A stretch of DNA of 64,000 bases, from contig MFPR01000004.1 in the NCBI GenBank assembly GCA_001784175.1, positions 248,001 through 312,000 of the forward strand. The letters run 5' to 3'. This DNA is from Candidatus Lindowbacteria bacterium RIFCSPLOWO2_12_FULL_62_27. Its GTDB lineage: Bacteria > Lindowbacteria > 2-12-FULL-62-27. Both the position numbers and the translations under genes were made by a program. The stretch's first letter is position 1. Each line of letters starts with the position of its first letter. This document shows positions 1,360-6,017 of the stretch, one piece after another. The notes below the pieces were generated by a model. That model searched no databases, was not told where the DNA came from, and saw only the letters and a program-made list of their open reading frames with translations.

Positions 1360-2219
1360 GATTGAAAAAACGCCAGCGCAGCGTAGCTCACCATGTGATC
1401 GGTTTCGCCCGTCACCTCCGCGCTCTGGCTGTAATCAAGAAGTTCCGCCGTGGTCCCGTGCGGCAGCGTATCAAGGAGAACGGCGATCGGCATGATCCCG
1501 CAGATCGTGGCGCCCGTCGTGCGGCGATACGACAAAAGCCCCGCGGCATTCAGTGCGCGGATCCGCTTCACCGCGCCCTCGTCGATCTCGCGGACACCGG
1601 CCTGCACGTCAGGCCCGACCGGCGGGAGGTAATCGAAATCGGCGCCGTAGTGCACGAAATCCGAGCTTGCGACGAGGAGCGTCCGATCGTCGACGATGTC
1701 CCGCAGTCCGGCCGCGAGCCGCCGCCGGTCCGTGTCGGAGAGTTTTCCGAGAAGGAGGGGCACGATTTGAAAGGGTTTGAACGCGACCTGGAAAAACGGC
1801 AGAAGAATTTCGAGACAGTGTTCCTTCTCGTGGGGTCCGTCCGCGCACGAAACGCCGGACGCCATCAGCTTCGCGACAGCCGCCCGGTCCACGGGAACCC
1901 GGCCCAGCGGCGTTTCAAAGAAACTTGCGCCGGCCAGAACCGCGCCCTGAACGAACGCGCGGTGCGAAGGCCCCATGAGGATGATGCGAGACCATGCCGC
2001 CGGCTCCCTCGACGCCATCGCGACGCCGGCGCCGGTGGTGCGCCCGCTGTACTTGTGGCCGGCATGCGGGAGAATGAGGGCGAGCAACCTTTGTTCGTGT
2101 TCTTTGATGACCGACCGGCCTCTTGCGAGAAATGCTTCAACCGACATTCGCAAATCCTGCGGATCGTCCGGATACCACGCGCCGGCCAGCGCGCTCGGGC
2201 GGATGTTCAGAGAGTCCAT
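1356..2219 (-). CDS. amrB: AmmeMemoRadiSam system protein B (MEMO1 family)
   Basis: RPSALAGAWYP, PHAGHKYSG, GPSH, EHCLE, SSDFVHYG, TICG, VSYAA motifs; start placed at ATG 2219, 7 nt below a TACAAT -10 box. Confidence 0.92.
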   Translation of the reverse strand: MDSLNIRPSALAGAWYPDDPQDLRMSVEAFLARGRSVIKEHEQRLLALILPHAGHKYSGRTTGAGVAMASREPAAWSRIILMGPSHRAFVQGAVLAGASFFETPLGRVPVDRAAVAKLMASGVSCADGPHEKEHCLEILLPFFQVAFKPFQIVPLLLGKLSDTDRRRLAAGLRDIVDDRTLLVASSDFVHYGADFDYLPPVGPDVQAGVREIDEGAVKRIRALNAAGLLSYRRTTGATICGIMPIAVLLDTLPHGTTAELLDYSQSAEVTGETDHMVSYAALAFFQS

Positions 2220-2226
2220 GGGTGAA

Positions 2227-2255
2227 ATTGTATAGCAGTTCTCAGAGATGGGCAA
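2227..2255 (-). promoter_or_regulatory. sigma70 promoter TTGCCC-N17-TACAAT for amrB (leaderless-type)
   Basis: Hexamers at 2255-2250 and 2232-2227, ATG 7 nt downstream, no SD. Confidence 0.65.
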
Positions 2256-2274
2256 CAGGGATAATACATCCATG

Positions 2275-2409
2275 GTAAACAGGGGAAACCATTAGCCACA
2301 AACGACACGAACGATCACGAACGGACACGAAGAAAATATTCTTCCCATGTAAAAATGTTCGTGTTCGTTCGTGGCGGATGTTTATCGCCGCGCTTTACCG
2401 AGGCATTAC
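2275..2409. mobile_element. MITE-like non-autonomous element, copy 1 (CACGAA/TTCGTG palindromic type)
   Basis: Aligns end to end with 46023-46180; GTAA...TTAC termini; internal ACACGAAC / GTTCGTGT inverted arrays; flanked by CATCCATG direct repeats (2267-2274, 2410-2417). Confidence 0.6.
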
Positions 2410-2420
2410 CATCCATGTAT

Positions 2421-2455
2421 AAAAAGAGGTGCCCATTCACTGGGAATGGGCACCT
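2421..2455 (-). terminator. Rho-independent terminator
   Basis: Perfect 12-bp stem AGGTGCCCATTC/GAATGGGCACCT with 5-nt loop, followed by CTTTTT on the minus strand. Confidence 0.85.
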
Positions 2456-2780
2456 TCGAGAGGGGGAAATATGGGCGTAGACACGACTGACGTTAAACGC
2501 ACTCGGTTCGCTGTGATGACCAGCGTCCCCCCGAATATTTATTTGAGTTCCTCTTGAGCCGGCGTTTCCTCTAAATCCGATCTTCCGATCGGCGAAAGCC
2601 ATAACCTTAGGATAATGACAGTCGGCGGGTGCGTTCGCCCTCTCGATTGTTCAGGCAACCACCCCATTCGCCGCTTCCCTGCTCGGGGCTTGAGCCCCAT
2701 CGGTTCTGGATTCTACTCCGTAACCTTTTGGTCATCCCTGACCTAGGAATTACCTTCCCCAACTTCCAACTCGAATGGTT
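2421..2780 (-). ncRNA. Candidate structured non-coding RNA of unknown family (~330-360 nt)
   Basis: Bounded by its own promoter and terminator; 5'/3' end pairing; several hairpins with GNRA loops; CCUAAG..UAUGG receptor-like motif; no credible ORF. Confidence 0.6.
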
Positions 2781-2786
2781 CGGAAC

Positions 2787-2815
2787 ATCATCCCACAAAA
2801 ATTGTGGAAAATCAA
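2787..2815 (-). promoter_or_regulatory. sigma70 promoter TTGATT-N17-GATGAT with palindromic spacer CCACAA-aaa-TTGTGG
   Basis: -35 at 2815-2810, -10 at 2792-2787, AT-rich tract upstream; palindrome 2793-2807 overlaps a 1-mismatch DnaA-box-like 9-mer TTTTCCACA. Confidence 0.55.
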
Positions 2816-2867
2816 GTTATAAACCAAAATTTTTTGCTATTGTAACTATTTATATAGCAGGCTGTTA

Positions 2868-3989
2868 TTATAGATTCTGGCTTTCGGATAGTTTGGAAAG
2901 CACTTGCACAACCCTGGCTTGATGGCTCTTTGGAAGGCCCGGATAGAGCGGGAGGGACAGAACGGACTGCGCAGCCAGCTCAGATTCTGGGAAATCGCCA
3001 CGCCGGTATCCAAGTTTTTTAAAGCAAGGCTGGAGATGAAGCGGCACGGGATAATGAACCGCCGAGTCGATGCCGTGGGACCGGAGCGCTGCCGCTACGC
3101 TGTCCCTGTTTCTCACCCGAATCACATACAGGTGGTACGCATGGCGCGCCTTTGTGTGAACTTTCGGAAGAATCATCCGCAGATTCTTCAATGCCAGGTC
3201 ATACCGATGGGCCTGGGACCTGCGCTGGCGCACCCAGCGGTTCAGAAAGGGCAGTTTGGCCAAAAGGACCGCCGCCTGGACGCCGTCGAGCCGCTCATTG
3301 TATCCGACGAGGTCATGGGCGTACCTTGCGGTCCGGCCATGGTTTCTCAGCTTTCGGAGCCGCTCGGCCAGGTCCGGATCATCGGTCACGACGGCGCCGG
3401 CATCGCCGTAAGCGCCGAGATTTTTGCTTGGATAAAAGCTGAAAGCGGCCGCCCGGCCGAACGTTCCGGCCTTTCGCCCGTTCCACGTCGCCCCATGCGC
3501 CTGGGCCGCATCCTCGAGAATCTGGACTTTTCCTTTCCGGGCCATGGCCCCCAGGCGGTCCATATCGGCCGGATGGCCGTAGAGATGTACCGGAAGGATC
3601 ACTTTCGTGCGCCGCGTCAAAGCGCGATCGACCCCGGCCGGCGAAATGCAAAACGTTGCCGGATCGATGTCGACCAGAACCGGCCGCGCGCCTGCATGAA
3701 CGATGGCCTCGAGGGTTGCGGTAAAACTGAACGGCGTTGTGATCACCTCATCGCCCTGTCCCACCCCCATGGCTTTCAGCGCGAGGTACAGCGCGGCCGT
3801 GCCGGAATTCACGCCGACGACCTCCCGGACGCCGAGCCATCGGCCGAACGCGCGCTCAAACCGCTCCGTGGCGGCCGACTGGACATATTCCTGGCGGTCC
3901 AACACCCGCCGGATGGCTCGAAGGATCGCGGGGCGGGCCGGGCGATCCTGCTTTTTGAGGTCCAACACGGGGATCCGGTATGAATTCAT
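2868..3989 (-). CDS. DegT/DnrJ/EryC1/StrS family PLP-dependent sugar aminotransferase
   Basis: NSGTAAL, GDEVITTPFSF, PVHLYG, EDAAQAHGA, FSFYPSKNLGAYGDAG, LSLPLYP. Confidence 0.95.
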   Translation of the reverse strand: MNSYRIPVLDLKKQDRPARPAILRAIRRVLDRQEYVQSAATERFERAFGRWLGVREVVGVNSGTAALYLALKAMGVGQGDEVITTPFSFTATLEAIVHAGARPVLVDIDPATFCISPAGVDRALTRRTKVILPVHLYGHPADMDRLGAMARKGKVQILEDAAQAHGATWNGRKAGTFGRAAAFSFYPSKNLGAYGDAGAVVTDDPDLAERLRKLRNHGRTARYAHDLVGYNERLDGVQAAVLLAKLPFLNRWVRQRRSQAHRYDLALKNLRMILPKVHTKARHAYHLYVIRVRNRDSVAAALRSHGIDSAVHYPVPLHLQPCFKKLGYRRGDFPESELAAQSVLSLPLYPGLPKSHQARVVQVLSKLSESQNL

Positions 3990-4027
3990 GAAGGAAAGAT
4001 GTATCAGCGCGAAGAAAGGAGTTCAAG

Positions 4028-4036: not shown

Positions 4037-4173
4037 AAGTTGCCGATAGGTGAAACATAGCGGTCAAAGGTTCCCTCCCTTTACCCTGTTATCCGAACTT
4101 ATGGAGCGGGCGGTTGCGGCAGCCGCCCGCTCCACCTTTTATATCGAGACCAAAGAGATATACTATATCCAAC

Positions 4174-4608
4174 ATGACCTACCGGTTCACGGACCATACG
4201 GCGGATTATGGCGTGGAGGTGTACGCGTTCACGGCCGAGGAGGCGTTTTGCGACGCTGCGCGGGCGCTGTACGAAATCCTGTACGGCAAGAACGCCGCCG
4301 TCCTATTTCGCGCGGGCCATCAGGGCGCGCCGGCGCCGGTGCGGATGGAGGAGGGCACGCTTGCCGACCTGCTTCACGCGTGGCTCTCGCTGCATCTCGA
4401 CCGCTGCGTGCAGGACCGGCGTGTGGCGAGCGGCTGGCGGATCCGGGTGGACTTCAGAAGGGCCCGGCTGGAGGGAGAAATATACATGACGGAAGCGGCG
4501 AAACTGGGTTTAACCCTGGAGCGGGAGGTCAAAGCCGTGACCTATCACGATCTGAGGGCGCAAGCGAGTTTGGAAAAAACGACGCTGCATTATATTGTGG
4601 ACGTCTGA
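4174..4608 (+). CDS. Archease
   Basis: N-terminal YRFTDHTADYG and C-terminal EVKAVTYHDL..YIVDV signatures; directly upstream of rtcB. Confidence 0.93.
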   Translation: MTYRFTDHTADYGVEVYAFTAEEAFCDAARALYEILYGKNAAVLFRAGHQGAPAPVRMEEGTLADLLHAWLSLHLDRCVQDRRVASGWRIRVDFRRARLEGEIYMTEAAKLGLTLEREVKAVTYHDLRAQASLEKTTLHYIVDV

Positions 4609-4610
4609 TC

Positions 4611-6017
4611 ATGGACGTGAAGATTCGCAAGGTTGGCGAGCACAAATACTGCATTCCGAAATCGGACCATCCGGGCCTTCGGGCCGACATTTACATTTAC
4701 GCGACGGAACAGATTCTGGGCGCGATCCGAGCCGACCAGACCTGCACGCAGATCGTGAACGTGGCGATGATGCCGGACATCGTGTCGCCCGTGCATCTTA
4801 TGCCGGACGCGCATTTCGGATACGGGTTTCCGATCGGCGCAGTGGCGGCGTTTGACGCGGTGGACGGCTGGGTCAGTCCGGGCGGCGTGGGCGCGGACAT
4901 CAACTGCGGCGTGCGTCTCATGTCGACGGACATCCCGGCGGACGAATTGAATGAGAAGCGCAGAAAGTCGCTGGTCGAGGCGCTGTTTCGGCGGGTCCCG
5001 AGCGGCCTCGGCGTCGGAGGGCCGCTGAAACTGTCCGGCCGGCCGCTGAACGACGTGCTGGAGCGCGGCGCGCCGGCGATCGTCGAGAAGGGGTTGGGGT
5101 TGCCGGAGGATTTGAGCCACATAGAAGATCAGGGATCGATCGAGGGCGCGGAAGCGGCAAGCGTGTCGGACGCCGCCAAGAAACGCGGGTTCGATCAATG
5201 CGGGACCATGGGATCCGGGAACCATTTTCTTGAAGTTCAGCGGGTGGAGAAAATTTTCGACCCGGCGACGGCCGGGCGGTGGCGCGTGTCGGAAGGGACG
5301 CTGGCGGTCATGATCCATTCCGGTTCCCGGGGGCTCGGATACCAGGTGTCGGACGAATTCTGGAAGCGGTCCAAGAAGGCGCTGCCGTCGTTCGGGATCG
5401 AGGTCGCCGACGCCCAGCTTTCCCCGCTGCCGATCCGCAGCGACCTGGGCCGCGAATATCTTGCGGCGATGCGGGCCGCCGCGAATTACGCGTTTGCGAA
5501 CCGGCAGGCGCTCATGCATCTGGTGCGCGGGGTCTTTCAGGACGAATTTTCGGGCACGGCCGAAGGCTTGGGCCTGCGGCTGGTCTACGACGTGGCGCAC
5601 AACATCGCGAAGGAGGAGTCGTACGAGTCGGCCGGCGTGACGCGCGCGCTGCTCGTGCACCGCAAGGGCGCAACGCGCGCGTTTCCGGACCAGCCGGTGA
5701 TCATCCCGGGCGACATGGGCACCGCGTCGTATCTTTTGGCGGGGACGGTGGCGGCGCGATCAAGTTATTATACCGTCTGTCACGGCGCCGGGCGTGTCCT
5801 GTCGCGCACCGCCGCCAAGAAGCGCGTGGATGTCGGGCGGCTCGTGCGGGAATTGCGGGATCAGGGAATAGAAGTGCGAGGCGGCTCGAAAGCGGGCCTT
5901 GCGGAGGAGGCGCCGGAGGCGTACAAGGACATAGAGCAGGTGGTGGACGCCGTCGAAGTCAACGGCCTGGCGCGGCGGGTCGCGCGATTGAAGCCGGTCT
6001 GCGTCATCAAAGGGTAG
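4611..6017 (+). CDS. rtcB: RtcB 3'-phosphate/5'-OH RNA ligase
   Basis: MPDAHFGYGFPIG, GGVGADINCGVR, GSGNHFLE, IHSGSRG, DVAHN, HRKGATRA, PGDMG, HGAGR, EEAPEAYKD. Confidence 0.97.
   Translation: MDVKIRKVGEHKYCIPKSDHPGLRADIYIYATEQILGAIRADQTCTQIVNVAMMPDIVSPVHLMPDAHFGYGFPIGAVAAFDAVDGWVSPGGVGADINCGVRLMSTDIPADELNEKRRKSLVEALFRRVPSGLGVGGPLKLSGRPLNDVLERGAPAIVEKGLGLPEDLSHIEDQGSIEGAEAASVSDAAKKRGFDQCGTMGSGNHFLEVQRVEKIFDPATAGRWRVSEGTLAVMIHSGSRGLGYQVSDEFWKRSKKALPSFGIEVADAQLSPLPIRSDLGREYLAAMRAAANYAFANRQALMHLVRGVFQDEFSGTAEGLGLRLVYDVAHNIAKEESYESAGVTRALLVHRKGATRAFPDQPVIIPGDMGTASYLLAGTVAARSSYYTVCHGAGRVLSRTAAKKRVDVGRLVRELRDQGIEVRGGSKAGLAEEAPEAYKDIEQVVDAVEVNGLARRVARLKPVCVIKG

What the first reader, a model, noticed from the sequence alone, without database searches (positions are those of the whole stretch)
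2421..2815. Stand-alone ~350-nt structured ncRNA candidate of no recognised family
Seen: a long intergenic gap, lower in GC than the flanking genes, laid out as a complete minus-strand transcription unit. It has a promoter TTGATT-N17-GATGAT (2815-2787), a predicted start near 2780 and a perfect 12-bp terminator with U-tract (2455-2421). The ends can pair: UUCGAG 2775-2770 with CUCGAA 2460-2455, and GGGGAA 2760-2755 with UUCCCC 2468-2463. Internal hairpins: GGUCA-GGGA-UGACC (2743-2730) and CCGAUC-GGAA-GAUCGG (2592-2577), both GNRA loops; GGGGC-UCAA-GCCCC (2698-2685); CGCUG/CAGCG (2525-2509). There is a long-range CGACUG/CAGUCG pairing (2624-2619 with 2489-2484) and a CCUAAG-GU-UAUGG segment (2611-2599) containing both strands of the 11-nt tetraloop receptor, although with a very tight linker. 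Known: GNRA/receptor contacts are typical of large tertiary-folded RNAs (group I/II introns, RNase P). The hallmark motifs of RNase P, SRP, tmRNA, T-box and group II domain V are absent. The downstream amrB gene has its own promoter, which favours a trans-acting RNA over a riboswitch. Inference: an undescribed large ncRNA or ribozyme-like RNA.
Basis: partly seen in the sequence, partly recalled or inferred. Interest (0 to 1): 0.8.

Follow-up and report, generated by a model that had tools for sequence, protein, structure and literature searches.

The report
Lineage-specific 355-nt regulatory RNA gene
A conserved, apparently independently transcribed RNA gene of about 355 bases, matching no described family and found so far in only three related uncultured bacteria, carries an invariant stretch that could pair with the start region of a cell-division/ribosome-methylase operon and so may regulate it.

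Summary
The gap 2226-2867 holds a conserved minus-strand RNA gene. A promoter (TTGATT-17-TGn-NATNMT), about 355 nt of mosaic conservation and a 12-bp terminator recur at the same place in 3 of the 4 genomes held for this phylum. Their flanking genes are only about 64% identical.

- **Not a known family:** no Rfam family matches any copy. RNase P, tmRNA, 6S and SRP RNAs lie elsewhere.
- **Not coding, not a leader:** no reading frame is conserved. The downstream Memo/amrB gene has its own conserved promoter.
- **Structure:** hairpins H1, H3 and H6 show compensatory changes. The core hairpins are invariant, so untested.
the tetraloop receptor, long-range pair and end-to-end helix are G000-only or no better than shuffles. 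The ribozyme-like reading is unsupported.

New here: the invariant 19-nt C-rich stretch before the terminator is complementary (18-19 bp) to the only conserved island of the mraZ-rsmH spacer. That island is an SD plus AUG opening a short upstream ORF, and the match holds in all three genomes.

Best reading (0.4): a trans-acting antisense regulator of rsmH/dcw translation, with a structured 5' domain of unknown role. The statistics are modest (about 1 in 100), there are only three sequences, and there is no expression data.

The parts
2810..2815 (-). -35 hexamer TTGATT, within an invariant AACTTGATTT
   Evidence: Invariant in G000, G001 and G002. An A-rich run (AAAAAATT) lies upstream in 2 of 3 homologs.
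2787..2795 (-). Extended -10: TG (2795-2794), one base, then GATGAT (2792-2787)
   Evidence: The 17-nt spacer and TGn + NATNMT are kept in all three homologs while the spacer sequence differs. Not listed by the consensus scan; I count 8 of 12 matches.
2421..2781 (-). Predicted transcript, about 355-360 nt. The 5' end is inferred, not mapped; a second -10-like TACAAT at 2844-2839 could give a longer form.
   Evidence: Promoter and terminator positions; homologs of 350-360 nt.
2746..2758 (-). H1 hairpin GGAA-GGUAA-UUCC
   Evidence: GGAAGC/GCUUCC in G001 and GGUG/UACC in G002: one A-U to U-A exchange.
2730..2743 (-). H2 hairpin GGUCA-GGGA-UGACC (GUCARGGAKGAY block)
   Evidence: Sequence conserved with little variation. 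Unique in the genome.
2702..2725 (-). H3 hairpin GGUU-AC-GGA-GUAGAA-UCC-AG-AACC
   Evidence: The internal loop AC/AG becomes UU/AA pairs in G002. Outer pairs are G-C in G001 and C-G in G002.
2685..2698 (-). H3b optional hairpin GGGGC-UCAA-GCCCC
   Evidence: Present in G000 and G001, deleted in G002.
2623..2680 (-). Conserved core: AGGGAAGCGG junction (2680-2671) and the irregular hairpin H4 (CGGY/GCCG, GGRGNG/CNCNCC, UUGCCU/GGGCGA)
   Evidence: Densest invariant columns outside the 3' end. A model built from G000+G001 finds G002 at 47.9 bits. 92% of cells pair against 35-54% when partners are slid, but there is no covariation.
2610..2616 (-). Invariant AUUAUCC
   Evidence: Conserved in all three once aligned by anchors. 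The local partner differs between homologs.
2577..2592 (-). H6 hairpin CCGAUC-GGAA-GAUCGG
   Evidence: CCGCA/UGCGG in G001 and CCGAC/GUCGG in G002. Two positions show compensatory exchanges, one of them with three different pair types.
2477..2565 (-). Variable 3' domain of constant length (89/90/89 nt) holding different hairpins
   Evidence: No common fold was found.
2457..2475 (-). Invariant C-rich seed CCCAUAUUUCCCCCUCUCG, complementary to the mraZ-rsmH leader island
   Evidence: Part of a run of 33 invariant columns. Forms 19 bp with G000 C27:33110-33128, and 10+8 bp with the same island in G001 and G002.
2421..2455 (-). Intrinsic terminator: 12-bp stem (2455-2427) and U-tract (2426-2421)
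   Evidence: The stem is invariant in all three except one U-A to U-G; the loops differ.

Best explanation
The locus is an independently transcribed gene for a trans-acting regulatory RNA of about 355 nt.

Its invariant, C-rich stretch just before the terminator (CCCAUAUUUCCCCCUCUCG) is an antisense seed. It pairs with the only conserved island of the mraZ-rsmH spacer in the dcw (division and cell wall) operon mRNA. That island, CGAGAGGGGG(G)AAUAUGGG, is a Shine-Dalgarno-like run plus an AUG that opens a short upstream ORF. This ORF ends at or next to the rsmH start in two of the three genomes.

Pairing would hide that ribosome-binding site. It would lower translation of rsmH, and possibly the stability or translation of genes behind it.

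The conserved, structured 5' two-thirds (H1-H6 and the AGGGAAGCGG core) is inferred to be a protein- or ligand-binding, or stabilising, domain of unknown role.

Shown: conservation, gene anatomy, the complementarity in three genomes, and favourable duplex energies. Inferred: transcription, the pairing in the cell, its effect, and the coupling of the upstream ORF to rsmH.
For: - **Gene anatomy:** the promoter, about 355 nt and the terminator are conserved at the same place in G000, G001 and G002. Flanking genes are 64-66% identical in DNA and 63-64% in protein.
- **Invariant 3' end:** 50 of the last 56 columns are invariant, 33 of them in a row.
- **Top genome-wide match:** the best non-self match to the seed in G000 lies between mraZ and rsmH. 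It is 19 contiguous pairs with one G-U, at -39.2 kcal/mol.
- **Same island in the other genomes:** G001 and G002 carry it at the same place, giving 10+8 pairs with one bulged U at -35.0 kcal/mol.
- **Only conserved stretch:** the island is the only conserved part of an otherwise diverged spacer.
- **Translation signals:** the island holds an SD-like run and an AUG opening ORFs of 10, 14 and 32 codons. In G000 the stop overlaps the rsmH AUG (AUGA). In G001 it lies 4 nt before a TTG.
- **Occurrence:** the island pattern occurs once in each of the 3 RNA-bearing genomes and in none of the other 148 of 151 searched.
- **Co-folding:** folding the whole RNA with the leader keeps the seed-island duplex and gains -18.6, -22.4 and -18.8 kcal/mol over the monomers. 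For G000, 120 control leaders averaged -7.3 (sd 3.7) and none scored below -18.6.
- **Chance of an 18/19 match:** 0 of 66 random 19-mers with a G5 or C5 run had another such match.
- **Not MraZ boxes:** the AAGTGG repeats upstream of mraZ look different from the island.
Against: - **Modest statistics:**
  - 1 of 6 shuffled seeds reached a better genome-wide duplex, -40.3.
  - 104 of 4000 random 19-mers have another 18/19 match, and 79 more have an exact second copy.
  - Two of the 120 control leaders came within 0.5 kcal/mol of the true leader.
- **Non-independence:** the three genomes are kin, so the three occurrences are not independent. Seed and island could each be conserved for their own reasons.
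- **Generic RBS complement:** the seed's complement resembles a generic strong ribosome-binding site of this lineage. An unrelated gene has similar sites in all four genomes, at -24.6 to -32.6 kcal/mol.
- **Seed accessibility:** the seed is predicted to be mostly paired inside the RNA, though no more than in shuffles.
- **No compensatory change:** none links seed and island.
- **Upstream ORF in G002:** it overlaps the presumed rsmH start by many codons, so simple coupling does not hold there.
- **Unexplained features:** a 355-nt RNA with a conserved structured core and an invariant terminator stem is more than an antisense seed needs.
- **G003:** it has neither the RNA nor an rsmH match, so it cannot test co-occurrence.
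Confidence: 0.4

Rival explanations
1. A structured RNA that acts through its fold, as part of an RNA-protein complex or as a ligand-binding or scaffold RNA. On this reading the match to the rsmH leader is incidental, or a relic of common origin.
For: - The conserved irregular hairpin H4 has invariant internal-loop bases, and the AGGGAAGCGG and AUUAUCC blocks are invariant.
- There is an optional hairpin (H3b), and some hairpins vary in length and covary.
- The terminator stem is invariant in sequence, not merely in pairing.
- The variable 3' domain keeps a constant length of 89/90/89 nt.
- The match statistics for the leader are only moderate.
Against: - No partner is identified.
- No known structured family matches.
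- No homolog turned up in 147 genomes of other families.
- This reading does not explain why the most conserved single-stranded stretch is an exact complement of another conserved island.
Confidence: 0.28
2. A ribozyme or large tertiary-folded RNA held together by GNRA tetraloop-receptor contacts.
For: The size, and several hairpins with GNRA loops in G000: GGGA and GGAA.
Against: - The CCUAAG..UAUGG 'receptor' occurs only in G000 and its halves are 2 nt apart.
- GNRA loops are not kept in the homologs.
- The long-range pair and the closing helix are not conserved.
- No ribozyme family matches.
Confidence: 0.06
3. A CsrB/RsmZ-type sponge that titrates the CsrA protein through GGA motifs in hairpin loops.
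For: - G000 encodes CsrA (93.1 bits).
- H2 reads CA-RGGA-UG in a loop-closing context, like the high-affinity CsrA site as I recall it.
- GGA sits in the H6 loop in 2 of 3 homologs.
Against: - GGA is not enriched: 10/10/11 observed against 7.9-8.5 in shuffles, p 0.13-0.34.
- csrA lies beside ORFs that I read as FliW and flagellins. That points to the protein-antagonist type of Csr system; these names were not tested with a family search.
- Only about 5 GGA motifs are conserved.
Confidence: 0.05
4. A cis-acting leader, attenuator or orphan riboswitch controlling read-through into amrB.
For: It lies upstream of amrB in all three genomes and ends in a terminator. G003 yielded neither the RNA nor amrB.
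Against: - amrB has its own conserved promoter TTGCCY-17/18-TACAAT, with the ATG 7-12 nt after it and no SD, so it is probably leaderless.
- G001 has a HicB-like gene inserted between the two.
- No conserved anti-terminator was found: GAAUGGG is missing in G002.
- No riboswitch family matches.
Confidence: 0.05
5. Not an RNA gene. Either a conserved DNA element (operator or bidirectional terminator) or a short protein-coding gene.
For: The 12-bp inverted repeat is invariant as sequence. Short ORFs exist on both strands.
Against: - Conservation extends over about 400 bp, with indels of 1-2 nt.
- Similarity shows in all six frames only over the invariant block, and no long frame is shared.
- The plus-strand ORFs behind the SD-like complement are 25, 8 and 11 codons and unrelated; I read this from the aligned sequences.
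Confidence: 0.04

Closest known systems
StsR of Rhodobacter sphaeroides (PMC8266604; abstract read)
   Same: A trans-encoded RNA with its own promoter that base-pairs with the leader of the dcw (division and cell wall) operon mRNA and so links cell division to conditions.
   Different: - No sequence relation was tested or expected.
- StsR targets the 5' UTR before the cluster and the UpsM sRNA, and works through RNase E cleavage.
- Here the site is the mraZ-rsmH spacer and the inferred effect is occlusion of a ribosome-binding site.
- This RNA is large and has a conserved structured domain.
DicF of Escherichia coli (recalled, not looked up here)
   Same: An antisense-type sRNA that blocks the ribosome-binding site of a cell-division gene.
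   Different: DicF is about 53 nt, prophage-borne and targets ftsZ. No homology.
RsaE/RoxS-type C-rich sRNAs of Firmicutes (recalled)
   Same: C-rich unpaired motifs that pair with G-rich Shine-Dalgarno regions.
   Different: Those RNAs are about 100 nt with several short C-rich motifs and many targets. Here there is one 19-nt seed and one near-perfect conserved site. No Rfam match.
mraW RNA motif (a cis element upstream of mraW/rsmH in Actinobacteria; name found in two papers; details recalled)
   Same: An RNA element tied to the rsmH (mraW) leader.
   Different: That motif lies in the mRNA itself. No Rfam family matched the three mraZ-rsmH loci at E<=1 or the RNA gene.
Large bacterial ncRNAs of unknown function (OLE, GOLLD, ROOL, raiA; recalled as Rfam families)
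   Same: A size of hundreds of nucleotides, conserved irregular helices, and a narrow phylogenetic range.
   Different: No covariance-model match. Only three sequences are known. This RNA has an identifiable antisense seed.

Membership tests
Any family of Rfam 15 | Covariance-model score at or above the family's gathering score | tested here: not met
   Window 1500-4000 at E<=10 gave one noise hit. Each homolog searched alone at E<=10 gave 2, 6 and 2 hits, the best at 18.3 bits against a cut-off of 62.
RNase P RNA, tmRNA, 6S RNA, SRP RNA | The genome's copy of the family lies at this locus | tested here: not met
   All four lie elsewhere in G000, above their cut-offs: C4:99517-99916 (212.4 bits), C6:181175-181535 (143.7), C4:314990-315219 (58.2) and C2:17519-17617 (71.6).
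Cobalamin riboswitch (considered because AGGGAAGCGGYGAAU recalls its core; the resemblance is recalled) | Match to the family model; conserved core and B12 box | tested here: not met
   No match even at E<=10. The CCCGCCGACUGU resemblance is in G000 only.
CsrB/RsmZ-type CsrA sponge | Many GGA motifs, enriched and sitting in hairpin loops | tested here: not met
   10/10/11 GGA against 7.9-8.5 in shuffles, p 0.13-0.34.
CsrB/RsmZ-type CsrA sponge | CsrA encoded in the genome | tested here: met
   PF02599 at 93.1 bits, C20:113210-113368. It lies beside ORFs that I read as FliW and flagellin (names not tested).
Group I/II-intron-like tertiary RNA | Conserved GNRA loop and 11-nt receptor | tested here: not met
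   The receptor halves occur only in G000 and lie 2 nt apart. The loops are not kept as GNRA.
Trans-acting base-pairing sRNA | Own promoter and intrinsic terminator, outside any mRNA | tested here: met
   Both are conserved in three genomes. The neighbour gene has its own promoter. Transcription itself is not shown.
Trans-acting base-pairing sRNA | Conserved seed with a conserved complementary site in a target mRNA | tested here: met
   18-19 bp with the mraZ-rsmH island in G000, G001 and G002. Significance is modest.
Trans-acting base-pairing sRNA | Seed accessible (unpaired) in the free RNA | tested here: inconclusive
   Predicted unpaired probability is 0.20-0.33, the same as with shuffled upstream sequence.
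Trans-acting base-pairing sRNA | Regulation of the target shown by mutation and compensatory mutation | not testable with these tools
   Needs experiments.
Riboswitch or attenuator leader | Lies in the 5' UTR of the gene it controls | tested here: not met
   amrB has its own promoter immediately before its ATG in all three genomes. A HicB-like gene is inserted between them in G001.

The most novel reading that the evidence does not exclude
A sensor-plus-seed riboregulator. The conserved structured 5' domain (H2-H4 core, AGGGAAGCGG, AUUAUCC) would bind a metabolite or protein and thereby gate the 3' antisense seed. The seed in turn would throttle translation of rsmH and the cell-division/cell-wall operon, through an upstream ORF. 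It would be a new class of large riboregulator, and the first regulatory RNA described for this candidate phylum.
Probability: 0.12. Interest if true: 0.75.

Novelty: new member of a known kind. Interest (0 to 1): 0.5.

Why it matters
Almost nothing is known about gene regulation in this uncultured phylum: 19 papers in the library mention its name, none in the title or abstract.

If the reading holds, a large lineage-specific RNA couples an unknown signal to the dcw operon and to the 16S rRNA methylase RsmH, through an upstream ORF. That would add a second, independent case of RNA control of the dcw leader beside StsR. It would also give a testable seed-target pair.

If the pairing is incidental, the RNA remains a clean candidate for a new structured RNA family, once more genomes of the lineage appear.

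Tried and rejected
- **More homologs.**
  - Exact-pattern scans of genome contigs found 2 records.
  - The scan of metagenome contigs found 4 stretches. One search shows these are copies of the three known sequences plus one chance hit, L022.
  - The phylum holds only 4 genomes.
  - A covariance model of the core run over 151 genomes added two weak hits. G125 (23.2 bits) lies inside a 584-aa ORF. G007 (19.4 bits) is partial and overlapped by ORFs. I reject both.
- **Expression.** No RNA holder was listed, and read laying was not used.
- **Earlier notes of this scan.** Nothing turned up.
- **Global consensus fold.** RNAalifold on the MAFFT alignment gave 82 pairs with a positive covariation term, and partly misaligned hairpins. 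No common fold emerged for the 3' variable domain.
- **Closing helix.** Not conserved, and no different from shuffles.
- **Seed against rRNA.** The best duplex was -31.6 kcal/mol against up to -30.0 for 8 shuffled seeds, so not distinct.
- **Island as MraZ operator.** The AAGTGG repeats upstream of mraZ look different.
- **IS-element ends.** At least 6 copies carry a sequence similar to the seed (18 of 21) in the same sense as the transposase mRNA. I treat this as coincidence.
- **Other seed-complementary sites.** They sit at ribosome-binding sites of non-orthologous genes, or of one unknown gene shared by all four genomes. They look like generic SD+AUG contexts.
- **First pattern search for the island.** It missed G001 and G002 because of a 1-nt indel. 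This was corrected.
- **First control run.** It yielded only 6 leaders and was redone with 120.
- **G003.** An amrB query and an rsmH query found nothing. Its RtcB locus has other neighbours.

Full report
**What is there.** Between a DegT-family aminotransferase gene (2868-3989, minus strand; Pfam E 6.8e-120) and a Memo/AmmeMemoRadiSam-B gene (ATG at 2219, minus strand; E 3.4e-54) lies a 642-nt gap. Its GC is 0.45-0.55, against 0.60-0.65 in the flanks. On the minus strand it ends in a 12-bp hairpin (2455-2427) followed by a T-run. It starts behind TTGATT (2815-2810), a 17-nt spacer, TG, and GATGAT (2792-2787). The region is single-copy in the genome.

**Conservation.**
- The genome belongs to a phylum with only four genomes in the collection. 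Two genome contigs records hold the conserved stretch, and one is titled Candidatus Lindowbacteria.
- Three of the four genomes (G000, G001, G002; different genera) have the element at the same place, between the DegT and Memo genes. The divergent archease-RtcB pair lies on the far side of DegT in all three.
- The flanking genes are 64-66% identical in DNA and 63-64% in protein. The element is a mosaic.
  - The block AACTTGATTT is invariant. The 17-nt spacer and the TGn + NATNMT -10 are kept while the spacer letters differ.
  - Blocks such as GUCARGGAKGAY, AGGGAAGCGG, GGGCG..C.C.CC.GCCG and AUUAUCC are invariant.
  - 50 of the last 56 columns are invariant, 33 of them in a row.
- Scans of genome contigs and metagenome contigs brought only copies of these three sequences plus one chance hit.
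- G003 (81% complete) shows neither the element nor the Memo gene, and its RtcB locus has other neighbours. Nothing can be concluded from it.

**Not a known family, not coding, not a leader.**
- cmscan against Rfam 15 at E<=10 gave only noise. This holds for the wider region and for each homolog searched alone.
- RNase P, tmRNA, 6S and SRP RNAs are found elsewhere in G000 above their cut-offs.
- Six-frame comparison of the three gaps shows similarity in all six frames over the invariant block only, and no shared long frame. The conserved core carries 1-2-nt indels.
- The Memo gene has its own promoter TTGCCY-17/18-TACAAT, with the ATG 7-12 nt behind it and no SD, in all three genomes.
- G001 has a HicB-like gene inserted between the terminator and that promoter.

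**Structure.**
- By hand, checked by script, the hairpins H1, H3 and H6 keep pairing through compensatory changes.
  - H6 has A-U/C-G/A-U at one position and U-A/A-U/C-G at the next.
  - H3 turns an AC/AG internal loop into two U-A pairs in G002, and its outer pair is G-C in G001 against C-G in G002.
- H2, H3b, the irregular core hairpin H4 and the terminator are invariant, so they say nothing either way.
- A covariance model built from G000+G001 found G002 at 47.9 bits.
- On the model-guided alignment, 92% of cells pair against 35-54% when partners are slid. Covariation does not exceed shuffles: 1 pair with a double change, reached in 386 of 500 shuffles.
  - CCUAAG..UAUGG and CGACUG/CAGUCG are G000-only.
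  - GNRA loops are not kept.
  - The 3' stretch pairs with a different partner in each homolog, and no more than with shuffled upstream sequence.
- The fold energy z-scores (-2.5 minus strand, -3.0 plus strand) do not discriminate.

**The seed and its match.** The invariant single-stranded stretch before the terminator is CCCAUAUUUCCCCCUCUCG (2475-2457).
- Its best non-self complement in G000 lies in the spacer between mraZ and rsmH (C27:33110-33128). It forms 19 contiguous pairs with one G-U, at -39.2 kcal/mol.
- After fetching rsmH from G001 and G002, I found the same island at the same place. It forms 10+8 pairs with one bulged U, at -35.0 kcal/mol. My first pattern search had missed it because of a 1-nt indel.
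- The island, A[CU]ACCGAGAGGGGG(G)AAUAUGGGAAC, is the only conserved stretch of that spacer.
- It reads as an SD-like run plus an AUG opening ORFs of 10, 14 and 32 codons. In G000 the stop overlaps the rsmH AUG. In G001 it lies 4 nt before a TTG that precedes the conserved H-x-P-V-L-L. In G002 the ORF overlaps the presumed start.
- The island pattern occurs once in each of the three RNA-bearing genomes and in none of the other 148 of 151 genomes searched.
- Co-folding the whole RNA with the leader keeps the duplex and gains -18.6, -22.4 and -18.8 kcal/mol.

**Controls.** The support is real but modest.
- One of 6 shuffled seeds found a better genome-wide duplex, -40.3.
- 104 of 4000 random 19-mers have another 18/19 match and 79 more an exact copy. 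Among the 66 with a G5 or C5 run, none did.
- 120 control leaders gave a mean gain of -7.3 (sd 3.7). None scored below -18.6, but two came within 0.5 kcal/mol.
- The three genomes are kin, and there is no compensatory change between seed and island.
- The seed's complement also looks like a generic strong ribosome-binding site of this lineage. One unknown gene has similar sites in all four genomes, at -24.6 to -32.6 kcal/mol.

**Other ideas tested.**
- **CsrA sponge.** CsrA is encoded and H2 resembles the CsrA site as I recall it. But GGA is not enriched, and csrA sits beside ORFs that I read as FliW and flagellins (names not tested).
- **rRNA as partner.** Not distinct from shuffles.
- **Island as MraZ operator.** The AAGTGG x3 boxes upstream of mraZ are different.
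- **IS ends.** Similarity of 18 of 21 to the seed, in the sense of the transposase, treated as coincidence.
- **Homologs outside the phylum.** Two weak model hits in 151 genomes, both rejected.
- **Rfam on the mraZ-rsmH loci.** Nothing at E<=1.

**Comparison and verdict.**
- The RNA would work like StsR of Rhodobacter, which pairs with the dcw leader (PMC8266604, abstract read). It also resembles DicF or the C-rich RsaE/RoxS sRNAs (recalled). It is not a member of any of these families.
- Searches of the paper library found no RNA described for this phylum. I noticed no sRNA aimed at the mraZ-rsmH spacer among the 12 listed of 55 hits (listing only). Supplements were not consulted.
- I file it as a new member of a known kind: a trans-acting bacterial regulatory RNA. 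Confidence in the rsmH-leader mechanism is 0.4.
- The large conserved 5' domain remains unexplained and is the most interesting open part.
- The ribozyme-like reading is not supported.
- Interest is 0.5. This is a clean, conserved, undescribed RNA gene with a testable target, but it rests on three sequences and has no expression data.

Noticed in passing
window 2217-2255 (minus strand); L002 2130-2176; L003 1400-1436: The Memo/amrB gene has a conserved promoter TTGCCY-17/18-TACAAT, with its ATG only 7-12 nt after the -10 and no Shine-Dalgarno. It is probably a leaderless mRNA in all three genomes.
   Followed up: partly
window 2298-2387: A long imperfect inverted repeat (CACGAACGAACACGAA ... 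TTCGTGTCCGTTCGTG) lies between the terminator and the amrB promoter. It is present only in G000, and Rfam gave only a noise miRNA-like hit. It could be an operator or a hairpin.
   Followed up: no
L002 1737-2060 (G001): A HicB-like antitoxin ORF (Pfam E 3.3e-9), followed by a short ORF that looks HicA-like by eye, is inserted between the RNA gene and amrB in G001 only.
   Followed up: partly
window 4054-6014 (plus strand): This is an archease gene (4054-4605, Pfam E 3.9e-20) followed by RtcB. The 655-aa ORF listed at 4050-6017 is RtcB's frame running open over the archease gene. In G001 and G002 the two are separate ORFs.
   Followed up: partly
G000 C24:1-98, C44:1-95, C11:82931-83027, C4:221764-221861, C41:121354-121448, C37:123554-123643: The end of a repeated element with a DDE-transposase-like ORF occurs in at least 6 copies, several at contig ends. 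It carries a sequence 18 of 21 identical to the RNA's seed, in the sense of the transposase.
   Followed up: partly
G000 C27:33663-33740 (L028); also L045, L046: Upstream of mraZ lies TTGACA-17-TAGCAT, followed by three AAGTGG repeats at 10-nt spacing, conserved in three genomes. These are classical-looking MraZ boxes.
   Followed up: partly
G000 C27:33083-33128; L046 about 1100-1170; L045 about 2440-2470 (minus): rsmH has no evident SD of its own in G001 and G002. Its frame is open back through the conserved island, and its start may depend on the upstream ORF (10/14/32 codons).
   Followed up: partly
G000 C6:230581-231139; L065, L066, L067: A gene of unknown function (no Pfam family), shared by all four genomes, has an AGGGGG..AUGG ribosome-binding site partly complementary to the seed (-24.6 to -32.6 kcal/mol).
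   Followed up: partly
G000 C20:110767-115279: csrA (85 aa) lies between ORFs that read as two flagellins, FliW and FlgL/FlgK. This is the partner-switch type of Csr module. The names come from my reading of the translations and were not tested.
   Followed up: no
G000 C4:314990-315219: The 6S RNA gene (58.2 bits) lies about 3 kb beyond the end of the window.
   Followed up: no
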